A program made the translations under genes and the position numbers. A stretch of 64,000 nucleotides of DNA. Source: Acidobacteriota bacterium. GTDB lineage: Bacteria; Acidobacteriota; Thermoanaerobaculia; Gp7-AA8. This document shows positions 6,307 to 59,537 of this stretch, one piece after another (the first letter of the stretch is position 1; each line of letters starts with the position of its first letter). The notes below the pieces were generated by a model. It ran no database searches. It was not told where the DNA came from and saw nothing but the letters and a program-made list of their open reading frames with translations. The stretch spans positions 158,120-222,119 of the forward strand of contig JAJXWV010000047.1 in the NCBI GenBank assembly GCA_021781455.1, read 5' to 3'.

Positions 6307-6437
6307 GAGTGCTGAGTACTGAGTGCTGAGTACTGAGTGCTGAGTACTGAGCCTGAGTCCGCATCGACATGCAGTCATGCCGGGGGCAACACCGCATGGC
6401 TGCCCACTCAGTACTCAGCACTCAGTACTCAGCACTT
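6307..6437. repeat. Two-armed heptamer array: (GAGTGCT/GAGTACT)n - spacer - (ACTCAGT/ACTCAGC)n
   Basis: Inverted tandem arms around a ~45-nt spacer, between divergent genes. Confidence 0.92.
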
Positions 6438-6459
6438 GATTCGGTACACTTCGCCGCGC

Positions 6460-7779
6460 ATGAGCAGCCTCCGGCGCGAGATCGGGCTGTGGCGCGGGGT
6501 CGCCCTGAACATGATCGACATGGTCGGGATCGGCCCGTTCATCACCATCCCGTTCATCCTGGCGGCCATGGGCGGCGGCCGCGGGATGCTGGCCTGGGTG
6601 TTAGGCGGGCTGCTGGCCATCAGCGACGGACTGGTCACCGCCGAGCTCTCCGCCGAGCTTCCCGGCGCCGGCGGCTCATACGTCTTCCTCCGCAACGCCT
6701 ACGGGAAGTGGGGACGCCTGGTCTCGTTCCTCTTCCTGTTCCAGATCCTCGTCTCCGCTCCTCTGTCGATGGCCTCCGGATGCATCGGCTTTGCGAACTA
6801 CCTCGGCGTGCTGGTGCCGCGGGCCACTCATGCCGTGCCGCTCACGGCCATGATCGTCTGCATCCTGACGACGCTCCTGTTGCTCCGCCGCATCGGCGAC
6901 ATCGGCAAATTCTCGATCCTGCTCTGGATCGGGGTCCTCGGCACTCTGGCCATCGTCATCTTCGCCGGCCTGCCCCACCTGAAGCTCTCGGCGTTCCAGT
7001 TCTGGAACGCACCCCGGCTCGACGGGAAGCTCGCCTACTCCGGCCTCGGCGTCGCGCTCATCTACTCGGTCTACGACTACCTCGGCTACTACAACATCTG
7101 CTACCTCGGCGACGAGGTTCACGAGCCGTCGCGCACCATCCCCAGGGTGATCGTCATCTCCATCCTCTCCATCGGCGCCATTTACCTGGTGATGAATGCC
7201 TGCATCATCTCGGTCCTGCCGATGAAGCAGGCCATGACCTCCCAGTCGGTCGTCAGTGACTACCTCGCCGCGCTCCTCGGCACGCGCGCGGCGAGGTGGA
7301 TCTCGCTGCTCATCCTCTGGACCGCGTTCGCCTCGATCTTCTCGCTGATGCTCGGTTATTCGCGGATCCTCTACGCGGCGGCGCGAGACCGGAACTTCTT
7401 CGCGATCTTCTCGAGGCTGCACCCCACGCATGCATACCCGGTGGTGTCGCTTCTCTTCCTCGGCGGCGTGGCGGCGATCTTCTGCTGGATCCCGCTGAAG
7501 AACGTGCTTCAGGCCATCCTCTCGATCAGGGCCATCATCCCGTTCATGGCCCAGATCGTCGGCGCCGTGATCCTGCGCGTCCGCGAGCCGGAGCGCCCAC
7601 GGCCCTTCCGCATGTGGCTCTATCCGCTGCCCGCGATCGTCGCCTTGGGGCTGTGGTCGTTCATCGTCATCTCGCCCGAGAAGGGGTTGAAGGTGGGCGG
7701 GCTGTACGTGATCGCGGCGGGAATCGTGTTCTACGTCTTGAGGGAAGCGTTCGCGAAGAAATTGAAAATTGGAAATTGA
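6460..7779 (+). CDS. APC family amino acid permease
   Basis: About 12 hydrophobic segments; MVGIGPF, AELSAELPGAGGSYVFL, GDEVHEPSRTIP and RPFRMWLYP motifs. Confidence 0.9.
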   Translation: MSSLRREIGLWRGVALNMIDMVGIGPFITIPFILAAMGGGRGMLAWVLGGLLAISDGLVTAELSAELPGAGGSYVFLRNAYGKWGRLVSFLFLFQILVSAPLSMASGCIGFANYLGVLVPRATHAVPLTAMIVCILTTLLLLRRIGDIGKFSILLWIGVLGTLAIVIFAGLPHLKLSAFQFWNAPRLDGKLAYSGLGVALIYSVYDYLGYYNICYLGDEVHEPSRTIPRVIVISILSIGAIYLVMNACIISVLPMKQAMTSQSVVSDYLAALLGTRAARWISLLILWTAFASIFSLMLGYSRILYAAARDRNFFAIFSRLHPTHAYPVVSLLFLGGVAAIFCWIPLKNVLQAILSIRAIIPFMAQIVGAVILRVREPERPRPFRMWLYPLPAIVALGLWSFIVISPEKGLKVGGLYVIAAGIVFYVLREAFAKKLKIGN

Positions 7780-7838
7780 AAATTGAAAGAAGCCTCGCCA
7801 TCTTTCAATTTTCAATTTTCAATTTTCAATTTTCAATT
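7759..7838. repeat. Two-armed heptamer array (AAAATTG)n - spacer - (CAATTTT)n
   Basis: AT-rich inverted arms between convergent genes; the left arm supplies the permease C-terminus KLKIGN*. Confidence 0.92.
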
Positions 7839-7844
7839 CCCAGC

Positions 7845-8234
7845 TCACCGCGCTTCAGCGACTCCCCGCTCTCGCACCCAGAACACGGCCTGCTGCTGAA
7901 ACCGCGTCTTGTAGGCATCGATGATCTCGGCGATCTTGCGGTCGTTCTCGCCGCCCTGCGGGTGAGTCATCTCGACGACGTGCGACGCCTCCCGCTTGCC
8001 CTGCCAGTGGCCCGTGGCGCTCCATTCCGTGAAGCCGGGAAAGCGCGGCGTGATGACTTCCTCGACGAAGCCCTTCCACTCCGCATCACTGACCACTCCG
8101 CCCGGACGCGCAGTGCCGAAGTAAAGCGTGTCGATCTGCTGTACCTCGACCAGATGAACCGAGCCGCAGGCCACGAGGAGCGTCAATGCGACCAGCGCGG
8201 AGGCGCGTAGGGACGCGCAGCAGCGCGTCCGCAA
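7845..8234 (-). CDS. DUF3574-like lipoprotein (start uncertain)
   Basis: LYFG...VSDAEWKGFVEEVITPRFPGFT...G.W...REAS...YKTRFQQQAV pattern; LLVAC lipobox. Confidence 0.7.
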   Translation of the reverse strand: MRTRCCASLRASALVALTLLVACGSVHLVEVQQIDTLYFGTARPGGVVSDAEWKGFVEEVITPRFPGFTEWSATGHWQGKREASHVVEMTHPQGGENDRKIAEIIDAYKTRFQQQAVFWVRERGVAEAR

Positions 8235-8313
8235 CTCCCCGTGGCGGCGGCGTGGACGAGAGCTGCGGACGCGCTGCTGCGCGTCCCTGCACCGCACCTG
8301 CCTGTCCGGGCAT

Positions 8314-8895
8314 TCAGGTCTCATCGCGATCGATCCATTGCTCGACGGCGGGCGGTACGTACTCCGCGAAGCGCCGCAGCAGCGCGTGGGCATCGGATTC
8401 CACGATCGCGGCGCGGCGCATCTCCGGACGGATGAACGACTCGCTCACCCCGTGATCGAGGAACTCGAACAGCTTCGAGTAATAGCCGTTGACGTTGAGG
8501 AATCCGACCGGCTTGCGGTGCATGCCCAGCTGGGCCCAGGTCCAGATCTCGAAGATCTCCTCGAGGGTGCCCAGGCCGCCGGGGAGGGCGATGAAGCCGT
8601 CGGAGAGCTCCGCCATCATCGCCTTGCGCTCGTGCATGGTGTCGACGACGCGCATGGCCGTCAGGCCGGTGTGGCCGAGCTCGCGCCGGAGCAGGGCGCG
8701 CGGGATGACGCCGATGACCTGACCGCCGCGACCGATGACCTCGTCCGCCACCACGCCCATCAGCCCCACCCGCCCACCCCCGTACACCAGGGCGATGCCC
8801 TCGCGCACGAGCGCGTCCGCCAGATCGCGCGCCGCCTCGGCGTAGTCGCCGCGCGCACCCGAATAGGAGCCACAGAAGACGCAGATACGGTTCAC
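8314..8895 (-). CDS. LOG family Rossmann-fold protein (TIGR00730-like)
   Basis: ICVFCGS, LVYGGGRVGLMG, MHERK and PGGLGTLEE motifs. Confidence 0.93.
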   Translation of the reverse strand: MNRICVFCGSYSGARGDYAEAARDLADALVREGIALVYGGGRVGLMGVVADEVIGRGGQVIGVIPRALLRRELGHTGLTAMRVVDTMHERKAMMAELSDGFIALPGGLGTLEEIFEIWTWAQLGMHRKPVGFLNVNGYYSKLFEFLDHGVSESFIRPEMRRAAIVESDAHALLRRFAEYVPPAVEQWIDRDET

Positions 8896-8912
8896 GAGGG
8901 AAAGTCTATTAC

Positions 8913-9037
8913 CAGACCGCAGACCGCAGACGGCAGACCGCAGACCGCAGACGGCAGACCACAGATGCCCGGGGCGCGGTCTGTGGTCTGCGGTCTGCGG
9001 TCTGTGGTCTGCGGTCTGCCGTCTGCGGTCTGCCGTC
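8913..9037. repeat. Two-armed heptamer array (CAGACCG/CAGACGG)n - spacer - (CGGTCTG/CCGTCTG)n
   Basis: About 8 units, a ~12-nt spacer, then about 9 inverted units, between divergent genes. Confidence 0.92.
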
Positions 9038-9059
9038 TTCCATCGGCTATCCTTCGCCC

Positions 9060-10547
9060 ATGCTCAAGCGCACTCTCCCCTTTCTCCTCCTCATTCTGGC
9101 GACCGCGGCATTTGCGAGAGACATCGACCCGCGCGTGGTCGATCGAATCGTAGAGGACACCATGAAAGCCTGGAAGGTGCCGGGAGCGGCGGTGGCCATC
9201 GTGCAGGACGACCGCGTCGTCTATGCGAAGGGCTTCGGAGTGAAGGAGCTCGGGAAGCCCGACGCCGTCACGCCCGACACTCTCTTCGCCATCGCCTCCA
9301 ACTCCAAGGCCTTCACCACCGCGGCCATGGCCATCCTGGTCGACGAGAAGAAGATGTCGTGGGACGACCCGGTACGAAAATACGTCGACTACTTTCACCT
9401 CGACGATCCGTGCGCCGACTCGCTGGTCACGCTGCGGGACATCGTTTCGCATCGCACCGGCCTGTCGCGCCACGACGAGCTCTGGGACAACACGAACTGG
9501 TCCCGTGAACAGGTCATCCGCGCGATCGGCCACGTGAAACTCTCCAAACCGATCCGCACGGCCTACCAGTACAACAACATCATGTTCATGACCGCCGGCG
9601 AGGCGGTGGCCGCGGCGGCGAAGATGCCGTGGAGCGACTTCGTCCGGACGCGCATTTTCGACCCGCTCGGGATGACGCACACCCGCACGTCCATGTCCGA
9701 TTTCTACGCATCCGACCACGCCATCGGCCACAACTACGATCGGAAGAAGGACGTCATGGTCGTCCAGCCGCCCGACGACGACACCGCCCTCGGGCCCGCC
9801 GGCGCCATCAAGTCGTGCGCCAGCGACATGGGCCAGTGGATCCGCTTCCAGCTCGACGACGGCACAGTCGACGGCAAGCGCATCGTCTCCGCTGACGCGC
9901 TCGGCGAGACGAAGAAGCCGCAGATGATCATCCCGATGGACGCCGACTCGAAGCAGAACAACCCCGGCACCAACATCATGACCTACGGCATGGGCTGGGG
10001 CGTTCAGGATTATCTCGGGCAGCTGCTCGTCGCGCACGCAGGCGCGCTGAACCGGTTCCGCAGCAACGTGGCCCTCCTCCCCGACCAGCATGCCGGCGTG
10101 GCCGTGATGATCAACAGCAGCCGCGGCAACGCCGCCCTCGCCGTACGGCGTGCGATCGTCGATCTGATTCTCGGCACACCCCAGCGCGATTGGAGCGCCT
10201 TCTACCTCAGCCGCGAGAATGAAGAAATTGCGAAGGCGGAGAAGAAGAAGGCCGAAACCGAAGCCGCGTTGCCGAAGGACACGAAGCCTTCACACGACCT
10301 GAGCGCCTACGCGGGCGTCTACCAGAATGCGGGATATGGTCCGGCGACGGTTTCCTTCGAGAACGGCGGCCTCGTCCTGCGCTGGCAGAAGCTGGTCCTG
10401 CCTCTGACGCACTGGACCTATGACACGTTCTCCGCCGTGTCCGAGCCCGACGACGTCGACGAGAAAGTGCAGTTCCAGATCGCTCAGGACGGAAAGGTCA
10501 ATAGCTTGACCATCTTTGGCGAGGAGTTCGCAAAGAAGGCGGACTGA
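9060..10547 (+). CDS. Serine hydrolase, class C beta-lactamase-like, with DUF3471-like C-terminal domain
   Basis: Signal peptide; SNSK (SxxK), YNN (YxN), HAG and SHRTGL motifs. Confidence 0.88.
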   Translation: MLKRTLPFLLLILATAAFARDIDPRVVDRIVEDTMKAWKVPGAAVAIVQDDRVVYAKGFGVKELGKPDAVTPDTLFAIASNSKAFTTAAMAILVDEKKMSWDDPVRKYVDYFHLDDPCADSLVTLRDIVSHRTGLSRHDELWDNTNWSREQVIRAIGHVKLSKPIRTAYQYNNIMFMTAGEAVAAAAKMPWSDFVRTRIFDPLGMTHTRTSMSDFYASDHAIGHNYDRKKDVMVVQPPDDDTALGPAGAIKSCASDMGQWIRFQLDDGTVDGKRIVSADALGETKKPQMIIPMDADSKQNNPGTNIMTYGMGWGVQDYLGQLLVAHAGALNRFRSNVALLPDQHAGVAVMINSSRGNAALAVRRAIVDLILGTPQRDWSAFYLSRENEEIAKAEKKKAETEAALPKDTKPSHDLSAYAGVYQNAGYGPATVSFENGGLVLRWQKLVLPLTHWTYDTFSAVSEPDDVDEKVQFQIAQDGKVNSLTIFGEEFAKKAD

Positions 10548-10560
10548 CGGCCGTCAGGCA

Positions 10561-10699
10561 GCCCCTCACCCGGCTTCGCCACCCTCTCCCCGCGCGGCGG
10601 GGAGAGGGGCAACGAACATCAACACTCGCAGGAACCGCGAATCGTTGCCCTCCTCCCCGCAGCAGCGGGGAGAAGCTGGCCGAAGGCCGGATGAGGGGC
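10561..10699. repeat. Family C palindromic element (CCCCTCACCC...CTCTCCCCGC...GGGGAGAGGG)
   Basis: Terminal inverted repeats GCCCCTCA...TGAGGGGC with internal hairpins; relatives at 24270, 30438, 49585 and 62860. Confidence 0.8.
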
Positions 10700-10710
10700 G
10701 CGGAGTTCGA

Positions 10711-11046: not shown

Positions 11047-11060
11047 CTTTCCTCTCCTTT

Positions 11061-11796: not shown

Positions 11797-12942
11797 TCAC
11801 CACCCCCGTACCGGTTTCCACTGCTCGACGATTGCTCCGTGCGCGACCACCTGGTAGGTGTCGTACATGGCCGCGGTCAGGCAGGAATGGTTGGGGATCA
11901 CGCGCACCATCGTTCCGATCGGCAGGCGGGCGATGGCGGACGGCTCGCCTTCGACCTTCCCGTGCTCCTGCGAGAGCGAGACGAGTTTCAGCGGGAGCGG
12001 CCTCAGCTCGAGATCGCAGACGATGCCGTAGCCGAAATTCGGATCGACGTGGTTGGGCCCGGCATCCTTCGACAACGCCAGCGCGCCGGCATCGAGCACG
12101 AGGGAGCGGCGCTCCGGATAGGAACCGATCACCGTCGCCAGCACCGACACCGCGCAATCGCCGAGCGCGCACGAGCCGATCGTCGCCTGGTAGGCATCGA
12201 AGAAGACGTAGTTGCCGGGGCGCACCTCGTCGCAGCCGGTGAAGCGATCGACGACCGAAGCCGTCGGCGTCGAGCCGATGCTGCGGATCAGATCGGGGCT
12301 GCCGAGGTGGTCGCGAAAGCTCGTCACGGCATCGGACTCCTCGTGCGCCACAGCCCGGATCTCGTCCGCGTTCCGGCCGGCGTAGGAGTGACCGGCATGC
12401 GCAAGAGCTCCGCGCAGACGTGTCGCGGGCGATTTCGCGATCGCCTGCGCGAGGGCGACGCTTGCCGGATCATCGGGATCGACTCCGGCGCGGTGCGAAC
12501 CGCAATCGATCTTCAGAAAGACGTCGAATGCAGCGCCGTGAGCGCAATGAAACTCTTCTACGGCGCGTAGAGTGCGCTCGTTGTCGAGCAGGATGTTCAC
12601 CCGCTCGACCTTCGCCGCCAGCGCCGCCACCCGCTCCAGCTTCTCCGGCGCGATCGGCACCGCGTAGGTGATGTCGCGGAATCCCGCCGCGGCGAAGAAC
12701 TCCCCCTCGGCCAGCGTCGACACCGTGATCGGCCCGATCGCACCGCCGTGCTGCATCCGCCCGATCTCCAGCGTCTTGTGCGTCTTGACGTGAGGCCGGA
12801 AGGCCACGCCGGAGCGCGCCGCCTTCTCGTGCATGCGGTCGCAATTGCGCCGGACGATGTCGCGATCGACGAGAAACAAGGGGGTCGTCAGTCCGGCGAA
12901 TTGAGAATTGAGAATTGAGAATTGAGAACGTTCGGATGCCAT
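11797..12942 (-). CDS. DSD1/D-threonine aldolase-like PLP enzyme (alanine racemase fold III)
   Basis: RPHVKTHK, HRAGV, HAGHSY, GSTPT, RPGNYVF, SQEHG and PNHSC motifs. The N-terminus includes repeat-encoded SQFSILNSQF. Confidence 0.88.
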   Translation of the reverse strand: MASERSQFSILNSQFAGLTTPLFLVDRDIVRRNCDRMHEKAARSGVAFRPHVKTHKTLEIGRMQHGGAIGPITVSTLAEGEFFAAAGFRDITYAVPIAPEKLERVAALAAKVERVNILLDNERTLRAVEEFHCAHGAAFDVFLKIDCGSHRAGVDPDDPASVALAQAIAKSPATRLRGALAHAGHSYAGRNADEIRAVAHEESDAVTSFRDHLGSPDLIRSIGSTPTASVVDRFTGCDEVRPGNYVFFDAYQATIGSCALGDCAVSVLATVIGSYPERRSLVLDAGALALSKDAGPNHVDPNFGYGIVCDLELRPLPLKLVSLSQEHGKVEGEPSAIARLPIGTMVRVIPNHSCLTAAMYDTYQVVAHGAIVEQWKPVRGW

Positions 12943-12982
12943 ACGCTCATTTTCTCAATTCTCAATTCTCAATTCTCAATTC
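12898..12982. repeat. Two-armed heptamer array (GAGAATT)n - spacer - (CAATTCT)n
   Basis: Inverted arms between divergent genes; the spacer contains the ATG of the minus-strand gene. Confidence 0.92.
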
Positions 12983-15845: not shown

Positions 15846-15926
15846 GAATTTAGGATTTCAGATTGATGATTTATGAACCGCAGAGTCTTCATCGGTTCAT
15901 AAATCATCAATCTCAGATCTCAAATC
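15846..15926. repeat. Degenerate two-armed heptamer array (GATT-type) with 21-bp perfect stem
   Basis: AGATTGATGATTTATGAACCG (15860-15880) pairs with CGGTTCATAAATCATCAATCT (15893-15913). Confidence 0.82.
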
Positions 15927-16885: not shown

Positions 16886-16921
16886 GAATATTGAATGTTC
16901 AACATTCAACATTCAACATTC
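16886..16921. repeat. Short two-armed heptamer array (TTGAATG)/(CAACATT)n
   Basis: Read directly; encodes the glycosyltransferase C-terminus MLNVEC*. Confidence 0.85.
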
Positions 16922-40182: not shown

Positions 40183-40301
40183 ATTCAGGATTCTGCGTTC
40201 TATTCGATTTCTGAATTCATTCATTCTGAATTCGGCAATTCAGAATGAAGAATGCAAAATGGTGAAAATGAATTCAGAACGCAGAATTCAGAATGAAGAA
40301 T
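40183..40301. repeat. Degenerate heptamer array (ATTCTG / CAGAATG-AAGAATG type)
   Basis: AT-rich 7-bp periodic GAAT/ATTC units; arm polarity reversed relative to the other arrays. Confidence 0.75.
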
Positions 40302-40706: not shown

Positions 40707-41528
40707 TTATGGGATCACGGGCGCCGGCGGCACCGTCACCTTCTTCGGCGGGTTCTTCGCCAGCTCATCCATCAGCACCTTGACACCCATCTCCAGCGAC
40801 GGGTCGTGGCCGGCGGCGACGAGATCGGGGCGGTCGACCACCTCGATGTCCGGCGACACGCCCGTCCCTTCCACCGCCCACATGCCGTGGGTATCGAGAA
40901 AGCGGAACTGCGGAGCGGAGATGCCTCCACCGCCCATGAGCGACGGGTTGCCGGAGATGCCGATCAGCCCACCCCAGGTGCGCGTCCCGATCAGCTTGCC
41001 GATGCCGCGTTCTCGGAAGTAGTACGGCAGCGCGTCGCCGCCGGATGACGAGAAGCCGTTGATGAGCATCACCTTCGGCCCGGCGTTCGCGTAGGCCGGG
41101 GTCTGGGAAGGCTTCTCGCCGCGGCGGACCCAGTAGTTGAGGATCGGCCGGTCGAGCAGCTCGATCATCCGGTCGGGGATGAACCCACCGCCGTTGTAGC
41201 GGTCGTCGATGATCAGCGCGTCCTTGTCGACCTGCGGGTAGAAGTACTTGAACAGCTCCTGGTTGCCCTCGTTCGCCGGGTCGGGGAGGTGGATGTAGCC
41301 GATGCGGCCGCCGGAGAGCTTGTCGACCAGGGCGCGCCGCGAGTCGACCCAGTCGAGATAGCGGAGGTCGGTCTCCTTCGCGGTCGCCCTGACCTTCTCC
41401 TCGTGGGCACCGGCCAGCTCGGGCTTCGAGTTGAGGAGCAGCGTCACGATGCGGTTGGCCTTGTTCTCCAGCAGGCGGTAGAAGTTGTCCACGCCCTTCG
41501 TGGTGGCGCCGTCGACGGCCAGGATGTA
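40707..41528 (-). pseudogene. 5'-truncated tricorn-like S41 protease (part of PDZ plus C2 catalytic domain only)
   Basis: YILAVDG...GRIGYIHLP...IIDDRYNGGG...SSGGD...GTRTWGGLIG...EG.GV.PDIEV. The frame runs upstream straight into a heptamer repeat and hits TGA after 6 repeat codons. No signal peptide or propeller domains. Confidence 0.82.
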
Positions 41529-41551
41529 GGACTCAGGACTCAGGACTCAGG
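41529..41551. repeat. Heptamer tandem (GGACTCA)x3, single arm at the protease breakpoint
   Basis: Read directly. Confidence 0.85.
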
Positions 41552-43374: not shown

Positions 43375-44171
43375 AAACCAAGGCGCTGGCAATCATCATC
43401 ACGGCCGCCATGCTCTCGGCGTGCAGGCACCCGGCCGCCGAGCAGAAGCCGGTCACGATCGCCGCATCGACCGAAGTTGCCGCGACGGGGCTCCCGCAGC
43501 TCCTGCTGAAGCGGTTCGTCGGCGAGACGCACGTGAAGGCCACGTTCATTGCGGCCAGCGACGAGGCGCTGGAGAGTGCGGCACGCAGCGGGAAGATCGA
43601 CGTGGCGATCGTCAACTCGCCCGCGGTGGTCGCCGCATTCCGGCACTCAAACCTGGTGAAGCTCGGCAGCGTCTTCGCGTACGACGACTACATCATCGCC
43701 GGTCCGCGGAAGGACCCGGCCAGGGCACGATCAGCGAAAACGGCGGCCGAGGCATTCCGGAGGATCGTCAGGAGCCGACACCGGTTCTGTTCGCCCGCCG
43801 ACGTGCAGGGACTGCGCGAACGCGAGAACCAGGTCTGGAGCCTCGCGAAGATCAATCCGAAGAAGGCCCGATACGTGCTCTGCCACGGCACGGCGGCGGC
43901 CGCGCTGGATGAGGCCAACCGGCTCGACGCATACACGATCACCGACCGCGCCACGATCGCAACCGTCAAGGCCAGTCGCCTCGAGCCGCTCCTCGAAGGC
44001 GTACCGATGCTGCACAACGACTACACCGCCGTCCTGCTCACCGCTCCGGAAAAGAACCGCAACGCCGAGTGGTTCATGCAGTGGCTGATGTCGTATCGGG
44101 GACGCGACGCAGTGGAGGACTACCGGTTCGATGGCGGGAGACGGTTCTTTCTGGCGGAACAGCGGTTTTAG
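43371..44171 (+). CDS. TupA-like periplasmic substrate-binding lipoprotein (divergent)
   Basis: MLSAC lipobox; T....TGL, G..D, YIIAGP.KDPA, AYTITDRAT and L.N.Y motifs; ATGA overlap with the ClC gene. Confidence 0.72.
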   Translation: MKTKALAIIITAAMLSACRHPAAEQKPVTIAASTEVAATGLPQLLLKRFVGETHVKATFIAASDEALESAARSGKIDVAIVNSPAVVAAFRHSNLVKLGSVFAYDDYIIAGPRKDPARARSAKTAAEAFRRIVRSRHRFCSPADVQGLRERENQVWSLAKINPKKARYVLCHGTAAAALDEANRLDAYTITDRATIATVKASRLEPLLEGVPMLHNDYTAVLLTAPEKNRNAEWFMQWLMSYRGRDAVEDYRFDGGRRFFLAEQRF

Positions 44172-44217
44172 TCCTGAGTGCTGAGTCCTGAGTCCTGAGT
44201 TGGGCCACTCAGGACTC
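44171..44217. repeat. Two-armed heptamer array (CTGAGTC/G)x4 - TGGGCC - ACTCAGGACTC
   Basis: Fills the whole gap between two convergent genes. Confidence 0.88.
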
Positions 44218-44218
44218 C

Positions 44219-45631
44219 TCAGAAGTACTTCAGCGTCAGGTCGACGATCTTCCGCTTGAACTTGTTGTACGGCGGGTACATCAGCTGGATCGAGCTGAAA
44301 CGGGTCGGCTGCTGGAGGATGCCGCGGGCGTTGGAGAAGGCTTCGAATCCGAAGAAGCCGTGCGATTTCCCGATTCCGCTTTCCCCCACGCCACCGAATG
44401 GCAGATAGAGCTGGAAGAAGTGAATCAGAGTCTCGTTGACCGCGGTTCCGCCGGCCGTCGTCCCGCCTAACACCTCGCGGATGATGCGGCGATCGCGGCT
44501 GAACAGGTAGAGGACCAGCGGCTTCTCCCTCTCCGCGATGGTGTTCAGCGCCTCGTCGATGGTGCGGTATGTCGAAACGGGCAGCAGCGGGCCGAAGATC
44601 TCCTGCTTCATCAGGGTCGCGTCCGGACTGACGTTTTCCAGAATCGTCACCGGGAAATCGCGCTCTTTCGATTCTCCTCCTGCCAGGACCTTCGCACCGC
44701 GCTGAAGAGCGTCGTCGAGCAGCTGGCGGATCCGCGTCGCGTACGCTGAGGTCACCAGCAGGCCGCGGGAACCCTCGCCGCCGATCTCCGCGATCGCCGA
44801 GCGCAGCTTCTCCAGGAACGGCTCGCGCACTTTCTCGTCGACGAGAAGGTAATCCGGGGCGATGCAGACCTGCCCCGAGTTGAAGCACTTCCCCCAGGCG
44901 ATCTTCTTCGCGGCCTCGTCGAGGTTCGCCGTGCCGTCGATGATGGCGGGCGATTTCCCCCCCAGCTCCAGCGTCACGGACGTCAGGTACTCGGCGGCGG
45001 CCTTCATCACGATGCGGCCCACCCGCGGACTGCCGGTGAAGAAGATGTGGTCGAAGCGCTTCTTCAGCAGCGCGGCCGCCACCTCGGCGTCCCCCTCGAT
45101 GACCGCTACTTCGCTCTCGTCGAAGATCTCCGCCAGGATCTTCTTCATGCAGGCGCTCGAGTGCGGCGTCATCTCCGATGGCTTGAGAATCGCGCAGTTG
45201 CCGGCGGCGACCGCGGAGACGAGCGGCCCGAGCGTCAGGTTGAAGGGGAAGTTCCAGGGGGCCAGGATCAGGACCATGCCCTTGGGCTCGTAGAGGATCT
45301 TCGAGCGCGATCCGAGGAGCGACAGAGGTGTGGACACTCGCCGCGGCTTCATCCAGCGGCGCAGATGGCGCCTCGCGTGGCGTGCCTCGCCGACGACGGC
45401 GAAGATCTCCGAGAGATCGACCTCCGGGACCGGCTTCTGGTAGTCGGCCCACATGGCTGCGCGGATCTCGTCTCGATGAGCGAGCATGGCCCGCTCGATT
45501 TTGCGCAGCTTCTCGATCCGCTGTGCGACCGTCGTCTGCACGATCGCCGGCCGGCGTTTCTGCTGGAGCTCGTAGAGGCGGTCGATCTCCCCGACCGCCG
45601 TGGCGCGGGTGAACTGAAGCTCTGCGGTCAT
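44219..45631 (-). CDS. Aldehyde dehydrogenase (ALDH3/coniferyl aldehyde dehydrogenase-like)
   Basis: EPKG...PWNFP, LKPSE, FTGS, LELGGKSP, NSGQVCIAPDY, EIFGP and PFGGVGESG.G motifs. Confidence 0.93.
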   Translation of the reverse strand: MTAELQFTRATAVGEIDRLYELQQKRRPAIVQTTVAQRIEKLRKIERAMLAHRDEIRAAMWADYQKPVPEVDLSEIFAVVGEARHARRHLRRWMKPRRVSTPLSLLGSRSKILYEPKGMVLILAPWNFPFNLTLGPLVSAVAAGNCAILKPSEMTPHSSACMKKILAEIFDESEVAVIEGDAEVAAALLKKRFDHIFFTGSPRVGRIVMKAAAEYLTSVTLELGGKSPAIIDGTANLDEAAKKIAWGKCFNSGQVCIAPDYLLVDEKVREPFLEKLRSAIAEIGGEGSRGLLVTSAYATRIRQLLDDALQRGAKVLAGGESKERDFPVTILENVSPDATLMKQEIFGPLLPVSTYRTIDEALNTIAEREKPLVLYLFSRDRRIIREVLGGTTAGGTAVNETLIHFFQLYLPFGGVGESGIGKSHGFFGFEAFSNARGILQQPTRFSSIQLMYPPYNKFKRKIVDLTLKYF

Positions 45632-47160: not shown

Positions 47161-47242
47161 CGGGTCACGAGGTTGCGAGGTTGCGAGGCATCGACGGCCT
47201 CGTGATCTCGAAACCTCGCGACCTCGAAACCTCGCGACCCCG
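47161..47242. repeat. Two-armed octamer array (GGTTGCGA / ACCTCGCG-ACCTCGAA)
   Basis: 8-bp periodic inverted arms downstream of batD. Confidence 0.75.
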
Positions 47243-47244: not shown

Positions 47245-48822
47245 TCAACGTACCGTCTGCACCAGATCGCGGACTCGTGTCTCCAGATCGCCATCGGCGA
47301 TGCGTTCGCGGTCGAGAGCATCGGCAAGCGAGCGAAAGGCGCGGTAAGCGTCTCCGCGGTCGCTCGGCTCGACCGACAGCGCGGTGGCGTCGATGCCGCG
47401 GGCCTGAAGCCAGGCGTGGACGCGATCGCGCACTGCCGCCGGCGCGGCATCTTCGACCAGGGCTCGCACCTCGCGACGCAGCCGCAGCCACGATCGGAGC
47501 CGGGGCACGAACACCGCGGCCGCGAGCAAGACGACCACCAGCGCGCCGATCCAGGGAATCAGATCACTCGGCGAATGCCGGAGCGGCATCGCTCTGCCTC
47601 CGGCCGATGGCCGCGAAACCGCCGCTGCGTCGACCGTCAGTGCCGCCCCTCCGCAGCGAAGCCGGGCCCGCCGCGCGGTCGCGGTGTTGAACGCGCTGGT
47701 CACGACCGGCGGCACGTTCATCGTTCCGCTGCGTGACGGGAAGATCAGGATCTGCCATTTCCGCGACATCACCACGCCGGCCGGCGAGCGCTGAACCGAC
47801 AACGGCGCAGGCTGGATCTGCACCTCGCCGTCGACCGCCCCGTCCAGGTGCGGCGGCTCGACCCCGCGCAGATTGGCCCTCCCGCGCAGAGTCACCGACA
47901 TGGCCACCGGGCCGCCCGCCTTCTGCGCGGGCGGAGTGCAGTCCAGCAAGACCTCGCCGATCACGGCCGGCGTCGGGCCGGGCGGCAGCGGGCGCGCTTC
48001 GACTTCCAGCGGCGCCGATTCGAATCCCGTCTCCACCAGCGTTCCCTCGAACAGCGAGGCGGGACTGCTGTCGAAGCGGCGCATCACCTGGGCGTTCACT
48101 TCCATCCCGGCTACCCGAAGCGTGCCGCTGTGCAGCGGGAAGAGCGCCACGCGGCGGATGGCCATCTTCAGCAGCGTGCGGTCTCCGACGAGAACCCGTT
48201 CCGGCTCTTCGTTGCGCGTCTCGATCTCTTCGGTCCAGAAGTCGTCGAGCTTTGGCGCCGCTCCAATCTGCCACTGCTCGACGTTCGTGCCGTTGTAGAG
48301 ATACCAGGTGACGACGACCTGCTCTCCCACCCAGACGCTGCTCTTGTCGGCTTCGGCCACCACGAAGAACGGCTCGCGGCCGGTGGCGAGCAGCTCATGC
48401 AGGATGGTCAGCGGGTCGTTGGTCTCGCTGGCCCGGTCGACGATGATCTCGAGTGCAACCGCAGGCAGCGTCTCCCGCTGCCCTCCCTCACCGTTGACCA
48501 CCAGAGGCCCGACCATCGCGCCTCCCGGCTGCAGGGGCCGGGCCGTGAATGTGAAGACCTTTCGCCGAGTCACCGTGCCGTTGATCCACGACATCTCCGA
48601 AGAGACCGACGGCGCTCCGTCGATGGCCAGGTTTTGCACCGGCACACGGATCGTGTCGTTGACCGCAAACGCTCCCTCGAGCGTGACCACGATCGACACC
48701 GGCTCGTCGATGCGCACCGTCCGACGGTCGACGGTCAGGCTGTCCGCGAGGGCGGAGGAGCCGATCATTACGGACGCGGTGAGCGCCAATCGAAGGAAAA
48801 GCTTCAAATGTTGAATGTTCAA
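47245..48822 (-). CDS. BatD family protein
   Basis: Signal peptide; S.S.EMSWING, F...AEADK..V.VGEQV.VT.YLY and LFP..SG.L motifs; C-terminal TM; Bat operon context. Start uncertain because it overlaps a repeat. Confidence 0.8.
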   Translation of the reverse strand: MNIQHLKLFLRLALTASVMIGSSALADSLTVDRRTVRIDEPVSIVVTLEGAFAVNDTIRVPVQNLAIDGAPSVSSEMSWINGTVTRRKVFTFTARPLQPGGAMVGPLVVNGEGGQRETLPAVALEIIVDRASETNDPLTILHELLATGREPFFVVAEADKSSVWVGEQVVVTWYLYNGTNVEQWQIGAAPKLDDFWTEEIETRNEEPERVLVGDRTLLKMAIRRVALFPLHSGTLRVAGMEVNAQVMRRFDSSPASLFEGTLVETGFESAPLEVEARPLPPGPTPAVIGEVLLDCTPPAQKAGGPVAMSVTLRGRANLRGVEPPHLDGAVDGEVQIQPAPLSVQRSPAGVVMSRKWQILIFPSRSGTMNVPPVVTSAFNTATARRARLRCGGAALTVDAAAVSRPSAGGRAMPLRHSPSDLIPWIGALVVVLLAAAVFVPRLRSWLRLRREVRALVEDAAPAAVRDRVHAWLQARGIDATALSVEPSDRGDAYRAFRSLADALDRERIADGDLETRVRDLVQTVR

Positions 48823-48932
48823 TGTTCAATGTTGAATGCCGTGTGACTCCCGTTCCTTCATTCAACATTCAACATTCAACATTCAACATTCCCTCTGGTC
48901 ATTTTCAATTTTCAATTCTCAATTCTCAATTC
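48806..48932. repeat. Two-armed heptamer array (AATGTTS)n - spacer - (CAACATT)n, plus an extra CAATTTT/CAATTCT arm
   Basis: Read directly; batC-batD junction. Confidence 0.9.
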
Positions 48933-49584: not shown

Positions 49585-49771
49585 CCCCTCATCCGGCCGA
49601 AGCCTGCCCTGAGCGAGCGCCAAGCGCGAGTCGAAGGGGCCACCTTCTCCCCGCTGCGGCGGGGAGAAGGGCCACGATACTCACAATCCGCAAATCGCGA
49701 TCCGCCATCCGCAATTCGCGATCCGCCATAACGCAATTCGCGATTCAGCCTGCGCTCTGCGCTCTGCGCTC
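49585..49771. repeat. Family C element plus degenerate heptamer arrays (CAATCCG/CGATCCG/CAATTCG and GCGCTCT)
   Basis: Read directly; batB-batC junction. Confidence 0.8.
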
Positions 49772-49774
49772 TCC

Positions 49775-51729: not shown

Positions 51730-51746
51730 GCCCCCTTCCCTCCCGG

Positions 51747-51834
51747 ATCGCAGATCGCAGATCGCAGATCGCAGGCCGGCAGAGCATTGCCGCTCGCATT
51801 GCATGCGATCTGCGATCTGCCATCTGCCATCTGC
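51747..51834. repeat. Two-armed heptamer array (GATCGCA)x4 - spacer - (TGCGATC/TGCCATC)x4
   Basis: Read directly. Confidence 0.9.
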
Positions 51835-51835
51835 C

Positions 51836-52564: not shown

Positions 52565-52568
52565 GGAA

Positions 52569-52633
52569 GTCCTGAGTCCTGAGTCCTGAGTCCTGAGTCC
52601 TGAGTGCCGAGAGCCCACTCAGGACTCAGGACT
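52569..52633. repeat. Two-armed heptamer array (GTCCTGA)x5 - spacer - (ACTCAGG)x2
   Basis: Read directly. Confidence 0.9.
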
Positions 52634-53546: not shown

Positions 53547-53553
53547 GGTTTCA

Positions 53554-53648
53554 GTGCTGAGTACTGAGTGCTGAGTACTGAGTGCTGAGTACTGAGTGAC
53601 CCAAGCCGCTCGTCCGACTCAGTACTCAGCACTCAGTACTCAGCACTC
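53554..53648. repeat. Two-armed heptamer array (GTGCTGA/GTACTGA)n - spacer - (CTCAGTA/CTCAGCA)n
   Basis: Alternating 14-bp higher-order unit, same as at 6307. Confidence 0.92.
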
Positions 53649-54659: not shown

Positions 54660-54830
54660 AGATCGCAGATAGCAGATCGCAGATCGCAGATCGCAGGTGG
54701 AGATCGCAAAGGGCAGGAGGATCCGGAGTTACCCGTTACCTGACGGTTGAGTGAGCAGACAGGACGCGCCCGGCTCGCAACTCCACCTGCGATCTGCCAT
54801 CTGCCATCTGCCATCTGCCATCTGCGATCT
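54660..54830. repeat. Two-armed heptamer array (AGATCGC)n - ~77-nt spacer - (CATCTGC/GATCTGC)n
   Basis: The stem extends inward as GCAGGTGGAG / CTCCACCTGC; between the divergent moxR and rsmA genes. Confidence 0.92.
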
Positions 54831-58302: not shown

Positions 58303-58475
58303 CCGAACGGCAATTCCTCGAGGTGCGGCGGCGGCGCGGGCCGCCGCCGCACCGGCCGGCTGGCAGCCGGCGCTCCGCGCCGTTCCACAAGAGTTTCAGG
58401 GATTTGGTGATCCGGCTCACCTCCTCCAAATAACCCGGCACTGCTGTTGCTGTGTCCGGCGTCGGAGGTATGGAC

Positions 58476-59462
58476 ATGCCGCCTTCACGGCGCAAAACGG
58501 ACTCGCACGCGGAACCGCAGCGAATGCGGATTCTCGCCGTCGACGACGATCGCGCCTACCTCCGTTTCCTGCAGCTGCTGCTCAGGCGAGCAGGGTTCGA
58601 AGTGGCTGTCGCCCCCGACGGCGCCGCAGCGCTCCAGAAGGTGTACGAAGACCACGACATCTCGCTGGTGTTGATGGACCTCGCCATGCCCGGGATGGAC
58701 GGGATCGAGACTGTCCGCCAGCTGCGTGCGTGCGCCGATCCCTCGCTCTACGTCATTCTTCTCACCGCATACGCGGATCCCGATACCAAGCTGCGGGCGC
58801 TGAAAAACGGTCTCGATGATTTCCTCGCCAAGACCGCCAGTGCCCCGGAAATCGTGGCAAAGATCCGAAGCGCGGCCCGGCGCATCGACCTCGAAAAGCG
58901 GCTGCACCTCGAGAACGCCGCCCTTCAGGCCATGGCCCTGACCGACGAGCTCACGGGAATCGCGAACCGGCGCGCGCTCTTCGGCGCCGCCGCAGAGATG
59001 TTGCGCGTTTCCCGCCGCGTCAGCGCCGCCATCTTCGACATCGACCGTTTCAAGGACATCAACGATACGCACGGCCACCTGGCCGGCGACCGGGTCCTGG
59101 CCGGCGTCGCGCAGGCGCTCAAGGGCTGCTCGCGCGTCGGCGACCTCCTGGCGCGCTATGGCGGCGACGAGTTCGTGCTGCTCTTGCCCGAAACTTCGGA
59201 ACGCGAAGCACGCCAGATCGCCAATCGCATCCGCAAGGCCATTGCCGAGCTCGCGTGGCAATCTGCGTCAGGCGCGGGGGCCATCCGCGTCACTGCCAGC
59301 ACCGGCGTGAGCACCTCCACCTCCTCCGCCCGGCTCGAAGCGGCCGAGCTCATCGATCGCGCCGATGCCGAGCTCCTCCGCGCCAAGAAACACGTCGCCG
59401 AGAACGACCGCCCGCGTCGTCGCAAGCGCAAGGCGTCCGAGGCGCGGCCGGCGGCGGAGTGA
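58476..59462 (+). CDS. Response regulator diguanylate cyclase (REC-GGDEF)
   Basis: ILAVDDD, LMDLAMPGMDG, TDELTG..NRR, DIDRFK.IND..GH..GD and RYGGDEF motifs. Confidence 0.93.
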   Translation: MPPSRRKTDSHAEPQRMRILAVDDDRAYLRFLQLLLRRAGFEVAVAPDGAAALQKVYEDHDISLVLMDLAMPGMDGIETVRQLRACADPSLYVILLTAYADPDTKLRALKNGLDDFLAKTASAPEIVAKIRSAARRIDLEKRLHLENAALQAMALTDELTGIANRRALFGAAAEMLRVSRRVSAAIFDIDRFKDINDTHGHLAGDRVLAGVAQALKGCSRVGDLLARYGGDEFVLLLPETSEREARQIANRIRKAIAELAWQSASGAGAIRVTASTGVSTSTSSARLEAAELIDRADAELLRAKKHVAENDRPRRRKRKASEARPAAE

Positions 59463-59537
59463 GTACTGAGTACTGAGTACTGAGTACTGAGTACTGAGTA
59501 CTGAGTACTGAGTACTGAGTGCTGAGCACTCAGCACT
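59460..59537. repeat. Asymmetric two-armed heptamer array (TGAGTAC)x8-9 then CACTCAGCACT
   Basis: Begins at the DGC stop codon and ends at the csoR -35 box. Confidence 0.92.

What the first reader, a model, noticed from the sequence alone, without database searches (positions are those of the whole stretch)
6307..59537. Family of polarised, two-armed heptamer hairpin elements with interchangeable unit sequences
Seen: 15 loci share the architecture (7-mer)n - short variable spacer - (reverse-complement 7-mer)n, at 6307, 7759, 8913, 12898, 15846, 16886, 38789, 40183, 44171, 48806, 51747, 52569, 53554, 54660 and 59460. Single arms occur at 2545, 41529 and 49684. The unit differs between loci (CTGAGTA/G/C, TTGAAAA, TTGAGAA, TTGAATG, CAGACCG, CAGATCG/CAGATGG, CAGAATG, CAGAGCG, CGGATTG), but the period is always 7 and every unit can be written Y-N-G-A-N-N-N. 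In 14 of 15 two-armed loci the GA strand comes first and the TC strand second; 40183 is the exception. AT-rich units persist in a very GC-rich genome. Inference: random slippage would not fix the period, a shared GA core and the polarity across unrelated sequences. This points to a dedicated mechanism that deposits, extends or recognises these arrays, such as non-autonomous elements of an unknown mobiliser. Tandem heptamers are known as cyanobacterial STRR repeats. From memory and unverified, similar arms flank small four-helix-bundle (23S rRNA IVP/Avd-like) genes; no such gene is in this window.
Basis: partly seen in the sequence, partly recalled or inferred. Interest (0 to 1): 0.85.

Follow-up and report, generated by a model that had tools for sequence, protein, structure and literature searches.

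The report
Heptamer hairpins partnered with pentameric S23p/Avd-like proteins
The window is dotted with real, strongly polarised hairpins built from tandem 7- or 8-base units, and across genomes these occur almost only alongside a small ring-forming four-helix-bundle protein whose own gene sits inside such a hairpin, which links a long-unexplained class of bacterial repeats to a protein of unknown function.

Summary
The genome has 405 two-armed heptamer hairpins and 104 octamer ones, against 0 to 6 for periods 6, 9 and 10. In 402 of 405, arm order follows the unit class. Arms read RR(N5 RR)n, mostly AG, with a mode of four units, which gives five purine sites in about 31 nt.

Loops and flanks are unrelated, and I found no target duplication. 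All 8 PF05635/TIGR02436 four-helix-bundle genes in the genome lie inside such arms, each with its own unit family. The same holds for 92 of 116 homologous loci across phyla.

The unit sequence tracks the protein. It stays 96% identical where synonymous sites are saturated. Arrays are abundant in 56 of 71 genomes with the gene and 1 of 50 without. A second phylum gives 39 of 59 against 0 of 12.

Best reading: these are ORF-less members of an IVS-like hairpin system read by a pentameric S23p/Avd-like protein. Binding, processing and the copying mechanism are inferred, not shown.

The parts
6307..6436 (.). Two-armed heptamer hairpin, unit CTGAGTR (arms 6307-6351 and 6405-6436), between divergent genes
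7759..7838 (.). Two-armed hairpin, unit TTGAAAA. It starts inside the last codons of the amino-acid permease gene. Lies between convergent genes
8913..9038 (.). Two-armed hairpin, unit CAGACCG/CAGACGG. RNA fold energy -113 kcal/mol
12898..12982 (.). Two-armed hairpin, unit TTGAGAA, directly upstream of dinB. The orthologous junction is empty in G005, G003 and G004 and filled with TTGAATG arms in G010 and L201
14070..14139 (.). Two-armed OCTAMER hairpin, unit GGTTACGC, directly downstream of dinB. The same junction carries GAAGAGT arms in G010 and GAAGGAT arms in G003
15848..15926 (.). Hairpin whose units differ from one another but keep GA every 7 nt (GATTTCA GATTGAT GATTTAT ...)
16886..16921 (.). 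Short hairpin, unit TTGAATG, two 5' units against 3.4 3' units, with almost no loop
38787..38893 (.). Two-armed hairpin, unit TTGAAAA, with a compound 3' side (TTTCAAT followed by ATTCTCC array)
40190..40301 (.). Hairpin of the CAGAAYG family with reversed arm order (pyrimidine-type arm first), abutting a copy of the 300-nt MITE-like repeat
44170..44230 (.). Two-armed hairpin, unit CCTGAGT, with a short 3' arm
47168..47239 (.). Octamer arrays CGAGGTTG / CTCGAAAC.
48807..48932 (.). Two-armed hairpin, unit TTGAATG, followed by a further 3'-type TTCTCAA array
51741..51835 (.). Two-armed hairpin, unit CAGATCG / CAGATGG
52568..52633 (.). Two-armed hairpin, unit CCTGAGT (5.4 against 2.4 units)
53553..53648 (.). 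Two-armed hairpin, alternating CTGAGTG/CTGAGTA
54660..54830 (.). Two-armed hairpin, unit CAGATCG/CAGATGG, with a 74-nt loop
59456..59537 (.). Long 5' arm (about 10 units of CTGAGTA) folded directly onto an 11-nt 3' arm
2545..2568 (.). Single 3'-type arm (ACTCAGG x3.4)
41528..41551 (.). Single 3'-type arm (GGACTCA x3.4)
49686..49772 (.). Single arm of mixed units (period 7/14/21) followed by CTGCGCT x3.3

Best explanation
The window's hairpins are the gene-less members of an IVS-like hairpin-element system. Its partner is a small pentameric four-helix-bundle protein of the S23p / 23S_rRNA_IVP / Avd-like family (PF05635, TIGR02436).

Each unit family in the genome has one copy that carries such a gene in its loop. 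The many short copies carry only a random-looking loop.

An arm is an array of purine-dinucleotide sites, mostly AG, spaced 7 nt apart (8 nt in some families). The typical count is five sites, one per subunit of the pentamer. The five bases between sites are family-specific.

I infer that the protein reads these sites on the purine-bearing strand of single-stranded RNA or DNA, wrapping it as TRAP wraps its (G/U)AG repeats. I also infer that the complementary arm closes a perfect stem of about 30 bp. That stem would form in a transcript from either direction, always with the purine arm emerging first. As in the Coxiella 23S rRNA IVS, it would be a substrate for RNase III.

Shown here: the anatomy, the arm order, the gene-in-loop architecture, the co-variation of protein and unit, the conservation of the unit beyond neutral sites, and the co-occurrence across genomes.

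Inferred: binding, the single-strand wrap, RNase III processing, and dependence of the short copies on the protein. How new copies arise is unknown.
For: 1. Architecture. All 8 TIGR02436 genes of the genome lie between inverted tandem arms, each of a different unit family. The automated test finds arms at 7 of 8. The eighth has mixed 9/7-mer arms seen by eye. Every major gene-less family has a matching gene-bearing copy: CTGAGTN about 199 pairs, TTGARAA 42, TAGCGGG 28, CAGANNG about 64, TTGGCTC 19, plus the octamers.

2. Generality. Arms flank 64 of 80 homologous loci from Acidobacteriota, Planctomycetota, Desulfobacterota and others, 20 of 28 in relatives, and 92 of 116 overall.

3. Co-variation. 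Protein pairs at 80% identity or more share the unit (distance of 1 or less) in 62 of 63 cases. Below 50% identity this holds in 24 of 1681.

4. Constraint. In 61 pairs at 80-99% amino-acid identity, four-fold third positions are 40% identical (median) and inner non-coding DNA 51%. The heptamer unit is 96% identical per base.

5. Co-occurrence. At least 60 period-7 pattern hits occur in 56 of 71 genomes with the gene and 1 of 50 without. Spearman correlation with gene count is 0.79. In a planctomycete class the figures are 39 of 59 against 0 of 12. In the 21 closest genomes, the 3 without the gene have 9 to 26 hits, counting forward, reverse and control patterns together.

6. Unit specificity. 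The unit flanking the gene of G137 gives 92 hits in G137 and 0 in four other genomes.

7. Five sites.
- Arm lengths are quantised at 7n+2 to 7n+3 nt. The mode is 30-32 nt, in 144 of 405 5' arms and 178 of 405 3' arms.
- Octamer arms read (GGT N5)4 GGT, with a mode of 35 nt.
- Four full units is the mode in 40 of 84 5' arms and 50 of 84 3' arms next to genes in all taxa.
- Solved relatives 2GSC and 2RLD each have five chains and are described as a homopentameric toroid (passages in PMC4990558; reference title).

8. Conserved core. Variation within arrays concentrates at unit positions 4-5 counted from the AG (503 and 437 mismatches, against 137-226 elsewhere).

9. Precedent. The Coxiella IVS with an S23p ORF has a 28-bp terminal stem and tandem GACAGAT heptamers. 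RNase III cuts it at the first repeat (PMC4990558 passages). This genome encodes an RNase III domain.

10. Tolerance of both 7-nt and 8-nt spacing fits a flexible single strand better than one face of a duplex. This point is inference.
Against: - No binding, expression or processing data exist for this organism.
- The protein has no known catalytic activity, so it cannot by itself explain copying.
- Copies of one family share no loop or flank sequence and have no target duplication. The analogy with autonomous and non-autonomous transposons is therefore weak.
- Single arms show no strand bias relative to transcription, 67 sense against 77 antisense. This does not favour a sense-RNA regulatory role.
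- Fifteen of 71 genomes with the gene have few arrays. G139 has a gene with arms but no dispersed copies of that unit.
- One family (CAGAAYG) has the opposite arm order.
- The terminal dinucleotide is AA, GG or GA in some families, so 'AG' is a majority and not a rule.
- Genome counts come from related genomes and are not independent. The pattern used counts only units containing AG or GA.
- Co-variation could arise partly by common descent of gene plus arms.
Confidence: 0.55

Rival explanations
1. Gene plus arms form one selfish element, and the short hairpins are its leftovers. They would be excision or deletion footprints, or decayed copies. The protein would act on something else and would not read the repeats.
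For: The genes have foreign-looking composition: GC3 of 0.61-0.78 against a genome median of 0.85. Elements decay to single arms, as at L149, and 269 family-type arrays have no partner. Loops are unrelated. This reading explains the co-occurrence without any binding.
Against: The unit stays 96% identical while neutral sites saturate, so something selects the unit sequence in step with the protein. Arm length has a sharp mode at five sites for both 7-mers and 8-mers. Loops of short copies show no remnant of the gene cassette.
Confidence: 0.2
2. The hairpins are host-selected RNA structures, such as transcript stabilisers, RNase III processing sites or terminators. They would grow by slippage, with the four-helix-bundle gene a passenger that prefers such sites.
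For: 388 of 405 lie between genes. The median distance is 4 nt from the neighbour's stop codon. At the junction downstream of dinB, different genera carry different hairpins, including a plain palindrome in G004.
Against: Their spread over tandem, divergent and convergent spacers (273/73/42) simply follows the numbers of such spacers (2484/536/526). None of the 7 elements in window 5000-20000 is among the 11 terminator-like sites, although that scan allows only loops of 3-8 nt. Genomes without the gene have essentially none. Units fall into discrete families matched to resident genes.
Confidence: 0.1
3. The elements are REP/REPIN-like and are moved by the Y1 (HUH) transposases of the genome (RAYT-type).
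For: The genome has 14 PF01797 matches. REPINs are also intergenic hairpin doublets with a cognate gene (recalled).
Against: The Y1 genes are not flanked by arms. Only C9:2658 has a two-armed element within 1 kb. Across 121 genomes the odds ratio is 5 for Y1 against 183 for the four-helix-bundle gene. None of 23 genomes with Y1 but without the four-helix-bundle gene has abundant arrays. Nine of 16 with the gene but without Y1 do.
Confidence: 0.04
4. Arms are written by reverse transcription, with the Avd-like protein helping a reverse transcriptase as in diversity-generating retroelements or telomerase-like addition.
For: The proteins match the bAvd profile weakly (E 7e-7 to 1.5e-3 for 5 of 8). 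Addition to 3' ends at both sides of a break would give a fixed arm order (inference).
Against: The only reverse transcriptase match in the genome is an RT-Cas1 fusion next to no array. No reverse transcriptase lies beside any of the 8 genes.
Confidence: 0.03
5. The arrays are ordinary simple-sequence repeats made by polymerase slippage alone, or they are assembly artefacts.
For: Arm lengths vary in steps of one unit. Strain-to-strain variation in heptamer number is reported in Coxiella. Slippage surely changes copy number.
Against: Several results count against slippage or artefact:
- The excess is specific to periods 7 and 8.
- There are 405 inverted pairs against 13 direct pairs.
- Arm order is fixed and boundaries are defined.
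- Abundance depends on one gene family.
- The same architecture is seen in hundreds of independent assemblies, including one-contig and two-contig genomes (G124, G036).
Confidence: 0.03

Closest known systems
23S rRNA intervening sequences carrying an S23p ORF (Coxiella burnetii, Leptospira). Source: PMC4990558, passages read
   Same: Both have a PF05635-family ORF in the loop of a long terminal stem. The Coxiella stem region contains tandem heptamers (GACAGAT) whose number varies between strains. RNase III cuts in the stem. Origin and function are described there as unclear.
   Different: Known IVSs sit inside 23S rRNA helices. Here the 8 gene-bearing copies and all the short copies lie between protein-coding genes, and the assembly holds no 23S rRNA at all. 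Also not described in the passages I read:
- hundreds of gene-less copies;
- several unit families in one genome;
- the arm-order rule;
- the modal count of five sites.
GGGAATC heptamer repeats of Xanthomonas and GGGGAYT repeats of Nostoc (Rehm et al. 2015). Source: PMC4692102, passages read
   Same: These are intergenic tandem heptamers, mostly four units long. There are 70-75 cases of two arrays in convergent orientation, one on each strand. The loci are conserved between species but vary in length and sequence. Xanthomonas campestris also encodes XCC0516 (2GSC), the closest solved relative of the proteins here.
   Different: The paper interprets the repeats as G-quadruplex formers. No term for the four-helix-bundle or IVS protein occurs in that paper ('23S' and 'hypothetical protein' gave 0 hits). 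Whether XCC0516 is flanked by these arrays was not tested here.
REPIN-RAYT systems
   Same: This is a functional analogy. Both are families of intergenic hairpin doublets, each tied to one vertically inherited gene that is itself flanked by its own repeats.
   Different: The partner here is a four-helix bundle and not an HUH nuclease. Only the repeat unit is shared between copies, not the whole element. The Y1 genes of this phylum do not predict the arrays.
TRAP and its (G/U)AG repeats (recalled)
   Same: This is a functional analogy for the proposed reading mechanism. A ring protein binds one short purine-rich site per subunit on a single strand, with free spacer bases between sites.
   Different: TRAP is an 11-mer of a different fold and uses 2-3-nt spacers. 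No binding has been shown for S23p proteins. The family-specific N5 here is conserved, so it is probably more than a spacer.
Avd of diversity-generating retroelements
   Same: The fold family is the same, with weak PF22296 matches, and both form pentamers.
   Different: The genes here have no adjacent reverse transcriptase, template repeat or variable repeat.
TAACTGA direct repeats of Beggiatoaceae. Source: PMC4679880, passages read
   Same: Both are abundant intergenic tandem heptamers found patchily across phyla.
   Different: Those repeats are one-armed and oriented forward just upstream of start codons, with a single inverted case out of 170. Here two-armed elements dominate, and single arms show no strand bias.
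Cyanobacterial STRR repeats (recalled, not examined here)
   Same: Both are tandem heptamers in intergenic DNA.

Membership tests
S23p-type intervening sequence (IVS) | Inserted in a 23S rRNA helix | tested here: not met
   The assembly has no LSU rRNA match. The flanks of the 8 gene-bearing copies and of the window loci are protein-coding genes.
S23p-type intervening sequence (IVS) | Terminal inverted repeats forming a long stem (28 bp in Coxiella) | tested here: met
   Modal arms are 30-32 nt. Fold energies are -38 to -113 kcal/mol.
S23p-type intervening sequence (IVS) | PF05635/TIGR02436 ORF in the loop | tested here: met
   Met for 8 copies elsewhere in the genome. Not met for any locus in the window, all of which are gene-less.
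S23p-type intervening sequence (IVS) | Excision by RNase III | not testable with these tools
   An RNase III domain gene is present.
Bacterial heptamer SSR arrays with convergent pairs (Xanthomonas type) | Intergenic tandem heptamers, mostly about 4 units, often paired on opposite strands in convergent orientation | tested here: met
   compared with passages of PMC4692102.
REP/REPIN-RAYT | Cognate Y1 (HUH) transposase gene flanked by its repeats, with repeat abundance tied to that gene | tested here: not met
MITE of a DDE transposon | Conserved interior, terminal inverted repeats and target-site duplication | tested here: not met
   Loops are unrelated. Direct flank repeats are at chance level: k=4, 24 observed against 22.6 expected; k=5, 7 against 6.0. 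There is no per-arm duplication either.
Diversity-generating retroelement | Avd-like gene next to a reverse transcriptase with template and variable repeats | tested here: not met
   The genome has one reverse transcriptase, an RT-Cas1 fusion.
Intrinsic terminator | G+C-rich hairpin followed by a T run | tested here: not met
   None of the 7 elements in window 5000-20000 is among the 11 terminator-like sites. The scan accepts only loops of 3-8 nt.
Known RNA families (Rfam 15) | Match at gathering score | tested here: not met
   The window gave 0 matches.

The most novel reading that the evidence does not exclude
Pentameric S23p/Avd-like proteins are sequence-specific readers of five-site single-stranded repeats of the form RR N5, one site per subunit.

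If so, several puzzles would be faces of one widespread protein-repeat partnership. These are the excess of tandem heptamers in many bacterial genomes, the Xanthomonas convergent arrays, the rRNA intervening sequences and possibly cyanobacterial STRRs.

The partnership would be comparable to REPIN-RAYT. It would persist and spread without a recognisable nuclease, transposase or reverse transcriptase.
Probability: 0.35. Interest if true: 0.9.

Novelty: new variant of a known kind. Interest (0 to 1): 0.8.

Why it matters
Three things have stood side by side without explanation:
- Heptamer tandem repeats are over-represented in many bacteria. This is noted in the literature cited in PMC4692102.
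- The S23p / 23S_rRNA_IVP family has solved structures but no function.
- The origin and role of rRNA intervening sequences remain unclear.

The results here tie them together with testable specifics. Each protein has a defined candidate ligand, its own flanking unit. The expected stoichiometry is five sites per pentamer. The core is an AG or purine dinucleotide every 7 or 8 nt. A clear genomic dependence also stands out, in that arrays are abundant only where the gene is present.

If binding is confirmed, it would give a function to a very common 'hypothetical' family. It would show what non-DGR Avd relatives do. It would also give a new type of programmable single-strand reader.

For annotation, these hairpins and the small genes inside them are easily missed or miscalled. 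My crude gene caller missed the genes I looked at: the four gene-bearing loops listed show no called gene.

Tried and rejected
1. Y-N-G-A as the shared core. I rejected it in favour of the boundary phase. Some families lack GA (TAGCGGG, TTGGCTC), and a rotation-free motif is easy to find by chance. Arm starts and ends give RR, mostly AG.

2. Target-site duplication. None was found around whole elements or around single arms. An apparent match between the G010 loop and the empty G004 site did not generalise.

3. Flank preference. It is only mild: a G at -2 and A/C at -1 in CTGAGT families, and G at -1 in 85% of TTGAAAA ends. This is not a usable target motif.

4. Other cargo. Among 21 elements with loops of 200-1500 nt, 4 hold the known genes. 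Most of the others hold a copy of a 300-nt MITE-like repeat and no protein gene. The apparent ORFs share translated repeat sequence.

5. Strand bias of single arms. There is none.

6. Orientation of the gene relative to its upstream neighbour. It is 59 co-oriented against 29 opposite, with 1 ambiguous. This is about what gene order alone gives, so it is not informative.

7. dinB junctions in metagenomes. Two-armed elements occur at 2 of 76 upstream junctions and 1 of 68 downstream junctions. Occupancy is confined to close relatives. This was useful for seeing orthology and decay but not for catching an insertion event.

8. Rfam. The window gave no family.

9. Literature. Searches found no paper linking heptamer arrays genome-wide to PF05635 genes. 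Only the Coxiella IVS paper mentions both. The library lacks most subscription journals, and supplements were closed. Supplementary tables of PMC4692102 listing the repeat neighbours might bear on this.

10. Sequencing runs. Four DNA runs of one study hold the stretch, and no RNA holder is listed.

11. Structure prediction, the protein atlas, complex prediction and the large protein searches were not used. The profile match to solved pentamers made them unnecessary for the claims made.

Unpublished genomes. G018 and G066 are included in the tallies, and L136 (G018) is included. Without them the main count would be 54 of 69 instead of 56 of 71.

Full report
**Source and setting.** The window is G000:C40:158120-222119 of a 4.88-Mb, 90-contig genome with 64.6% G+C. 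The same-genus relative G001 carries a locus identical to one from a record titled as a Thermoanaerobaculia bacterium. The organism is therefore probably an acidobacterium of that class.

Direct reading confirms the arrangement unit array, short spacer, reverse-complement array.

Genome-wide counts are as follows:
- Exact arrays of at least three copies number 421 for period 7, 12 for period 6, 78 for period 8 and 13 for period 9.
- TRF rows scoring 50 or more number 662, 4, 190 and 28 for the same periods.
- Of 1579 merged period-7/14/21 rows, 1369 keep at least 70% period-7 identity.
- These form 405 inverted pairs with a median spacer of 17 nt, against 13 adjacent direct pairs.
- Octamers form a further 104 inverted pairs. 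Period 6 forms 0 of 239 arrays, period 9 forms 6 of 697, and period 10 forms 2 of 206.

Six window hairpins fold at -38 to -113 kcal/mol with z-scores of -6.7 to -13.9.

**Arm order (polarity).** An inverted repeat is its own reverse complement. Which arm comes first is therefore the same on either strand and is a true property of the element. Within unit classes it is almost invariant: 90:2, 82:0, 30:1, 28:0, 27:0, 24:0, 19:0, 19:0 and so on. That is 402 of 405 in the majority orientation, with 13 classes being singletons.

Among 326 unpaired arrays of known families, 57 have a weak partner. All 57 partners lie on the side the rule predicts. Octamer classes are equally one-sided.

The exception at 40183 is a family trait. 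CAGAAYG arrays have the opposite order at three loci and sit next to a MITE-like repeat.

**Anatomy of an arm.**
- Arm lengths are quantised at 7n+2 to 7n+3 nt. The mode is sharp at 30-32 nt, in 144 of 405 5' arms and 178 of 405 3' arms.
- In each family the arm begins and ends in the same phase, with a purine dinucleotide. This is AG in the CTGAGTN, TAGCGGG and CAGANNG families, and AA, GG or GA in others. An arm is thus RR(N5 RR)n, most often with five RR sites.
- Octamer arms read (GGT N5)4 GGT, with a mode of 35 nt.
- Variation between units of one array concentrates at positions 4-5 counted from the AG. The G and the following base vary least.
- The hairpin at 15848-15926 keeps only GA every 7 nt while the rest of each unit differs, yet its arms remain complementary.

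**What the copies share.** Within a unit family the loops differ completely in length and sequence, and so do the flanks. Direct repeats flanking the elements are at chance level. So are repeats around single arms. Flank preferences are mild. These are therefore not ordinary MITEs.

By a crude codon-usage gene call, 388 of 405 elements lie between genes. Their spread over tandem, divergent and convergent spacers (273/73/42) follows the numbers of such spacers (2484/536/526). They sit a median of 4 nt from a neighbour's stop codon and 31 nt from a neighbour's start. None of the 7 elements in window 5000-20000 looks like a canonical terminator. Single arms show no strand bias relative to transcription.

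**The partner gene.** The genome has 8 matches to TIGR02436. All 8 are PF05635, and 5 also match the bAvd profile weakly. Every one lies between inverted tandem arms, and each has a different unit: a mixed 9/7-mer, TAGCGGG, CAGACCR, CTGAGTR, TTGGCTC, an octamer, GAAGAGT and TTGAAAA. These are the same unit families that make up the gene-less hairpins.

The genes have unusual composition. Their GC3 is 0.61-0.78, against a genome median of 0.85 and a 5th percentile of 0.77.

A profile of the 8 proteins matches two solved structures, 2GSC (XCC0516 of Xanthomonas campestris, E 1e-34) and 2RLD. Each has five chains. The family is described as a homopentameric toroid of four-helix bundles (passages in PMC4990558; reference title seen).

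The only reverse transcriptase in the genome is an RT-Cas1 fusion. No 23S rRNA is assembled.

**Generality across taxa.** A search of one genome per species with one of the proteins returned 80 loci, mainly from Acidobacteriota, Planctomycetota and Desulfobacterota.
- 64 have inverted tandem arrays on both sides of the gene, 61 of period 7 and 3 of period 8.
- 14 more have one array or non-matching arrays, and 2 have none.
- In 20 close and distant relatives of the window's genome, 20 of 28 loci have both arms.
- A uniform re-analysis gives 92 of 116.

There too the 5' arm tends to start at AG (29) or one base earlier at CAG (22) out of 92, and to end at AG (27) or AGT (19). Four full units is the modal arm length, in 40 of 84 5' arms and 50 of 84 3' arms.

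**Protein and unit evolve together.** The share of protein pairs whose flanking units are the same or differ at one position falls with protein identity:

| Protein identity | Pairs with unit distance 1 or less |
|---|---|
| 80% or more | 62 of 63 |
| 65-80% | 96 of 138 |
| 50-65% | 179 of 1604 |
| below 50% | 24 of 1681 |

Common descent would give some of this. However, in the 61 pairs at 80-99% amino-acid identity, four-fold degenerate third positions are only 40% identical (median), and the non-coding stretch between arm and gene is 51% identical. The heptamer unit is 96% identical per base. The unit is therefore held constant over times that randomise neutral sites.

Several of these pairs also share conserved outer flanks. 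This points to orthologous loci that are inherited vertically.

**Arrays depend on the gene.** I used a period-7 AG pattern plus its reversed control as a proxy for array load.
- In 121 genomes of the phylum, 56 of 71 genomes with a TIGR02436 match have at least 60 hits, against 1 of 50 without. The medians are 185 and 17. The rank correlation with gene number is 0.79.
- In a sample of a planctomycete class the figures are 39 of 59 against 0 of 12.
- Related genomes are not independent, so the p-values overstate. Even so, the gene is patchy across 59 families in the first sample.
- As a control, Y1 transposases predict arrays far less well, with an odds ratio of 5 against 183. None of 23 genomes with Y1 but without the four-helix-bundle gene has abundant arrays.
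- The unit next to the gene in G137 occurs 92 times in that genome and never in four others.
- G139 has a gene with arms but no dispersed copies.

**Turnover at orthologous sites.**
- The junction upstream of dinB is filled in the window (TTGAGAA), in G010 and in metagenome locus L201 (both TTGAATG, with recognisably related loops). It is reduced to a decayed single arm in L149 and empty in G005, G003 and G004.
- The junction downstream of dinB carries an octamer element in the window, GAAGAGT arms in G010, GAAGGAT arms in G003, a plain palindrome in G004 and nothing in G005 and G002.
- Among more distant dinB loci, two-armed elements are rare, at 2 of 76 and 1 of 68.

Elements are thus long-lived at a site, they decay to single arms, and their unit can differ between genera at the same site.

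**What is known.**
- Warrier et al. 2016 (PMC4990558, passages) describe the Coxiella 23S rRNA IVS. It has a 28-bp terminal stem, an S23p ORF in the loop, and tandem GACAGAT heptamers whose number varies between strains. RNase III cleaves at the first repeat. The authors state that the function and origin of IVSs remain unclear.
- Rehm et al. 2015 (PMC4692102, passages) describe 186 GGGAATC arrays in X. campestris. Most are four units long, and 70 occur as convergent pairs. The authors read them as G-quadruplex formers.
- MacGregor 2015 (PMC4679880, passages) describes one-armed TAACTGA arrays upstream of start codons.
- My five literature searches found no paper that connects genome-wide heptamer hairpins to this protein family. 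The library is incomplete and supplements were closed.

**Interpretation.** The shown facts are best explained by a partnership in which the pentameric protein reads its own repeat. These facts are the gene in the loop, one gene per unit family, a unit conserved in step with the protein, arrays only where the gene is present, and five-site arms for both 7-mers and 8-mers.

Tolerance of both 7-nt and 8-nt spacing, and a core of two or three bases with family-specific bases between, suggest a flexible single strand wrapped around a five-fold ring, as in TRAP (recalled).

Because the element is palindromic, a transcript from either direction presents the purine arm first and then its complement. 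This gives a rationale for the fixed arm order. By analogy with the Coxiella IVS, it also gives a stem of about 30 bp that RNase III could cut. The genome encodes an RNase III domain.

Binding, wrapping, cleavage and any benefit or cost to the host are inferences. How new gene-less copies arise is not explained by anything I found. Copies share no loop and have no target duplication, and no nuclease or reverse transcriptase is associated with them. The lack of strand bias in single arms, the reversed CAGAAYG family, and gene-positive genomes with few arrays all count against a simple story.

**Verdict.** The finding is real and far from chance. The elements are best filed as a variant, located outside rRNA, gene-less and amplified, of the S23p-type IVS hairpin and of the Xanthomonas-type convergent heptamer arrays. 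The link to a specific protein family is one I did not find in print.

Noticed in passing
window 15240-15590 and 39890-40180: A MITE-like repeat of about 300 nt with 48-nt terminal inverted repeats. BLAST gives 220 rows, roughly 100 places in the genome (not counted exactly). It has no Rfam match. At 11 places it lies with heptamer arrays on both sides within 150 nt, and at about 15 more with an array on one side. It therefore seems to favour hairpin loops, or to be favoured by them.
   Followed up: partly
window 60115-60141 and 60589-60619: Two heptamer arrays of different families (CAGACCG-type and ACTCAG-type) lie in frame inside a heavy-metal P-type ATPase gene (59817-62723). They bracket a 228-nt tandem duplication that encodes extra YHS domains.
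   Followed up: partly
window 40190-40301; G000:C63:56577-56676; G000:C33:106317-106876: The CAGAAYG unit family has the opposite arm order to all other families. At C33 it is nested inside TAGCGGG arms, with the MITE-like repeat in the middle.
   Followed up: partly
window 38843-38893 and 48859-48932: These are compound 3' sides. A second 3'-type array of a different unit follows directly after the matching 3' arm, and there is no second 5' arm.
   Followed up: no
window 11528-11623, 17285-17327, 33969-34026, 35174-35236: Another repeat family with 21-33-nt tandem units sharing CCCCGTCA(C/T)(T/C)C(C/T)GAGC. Window 11573-11792 has copies of about 90% identity on other contigs.
   Followed up: no
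G000:C19:5054-8401 (outside the window): A 1115-aa RT-Cas1 fusion is the only reverse transcriptase match in the genome. An AAA ATPase gene lies next to it.
   Followed up: partly
L002, L003, L006 (G000:C1:43020-43105, C40:270195-270300, C40:127880-127990): Three gene-bearing copies with different arms share a conserved stretch between the 5' arm and the start codon (CCGAGGTA ... CCACAC ... GTTCGA). This could be an RNA or promoter element of the cassette.
   Followed up: no
G013:C2:75246-88920: A relative of the same order carries very long AGGTGAG arrays, with 30 units next to its four-helix-bundle gene in L133, clustered within 14 kb.
   Followed up: no
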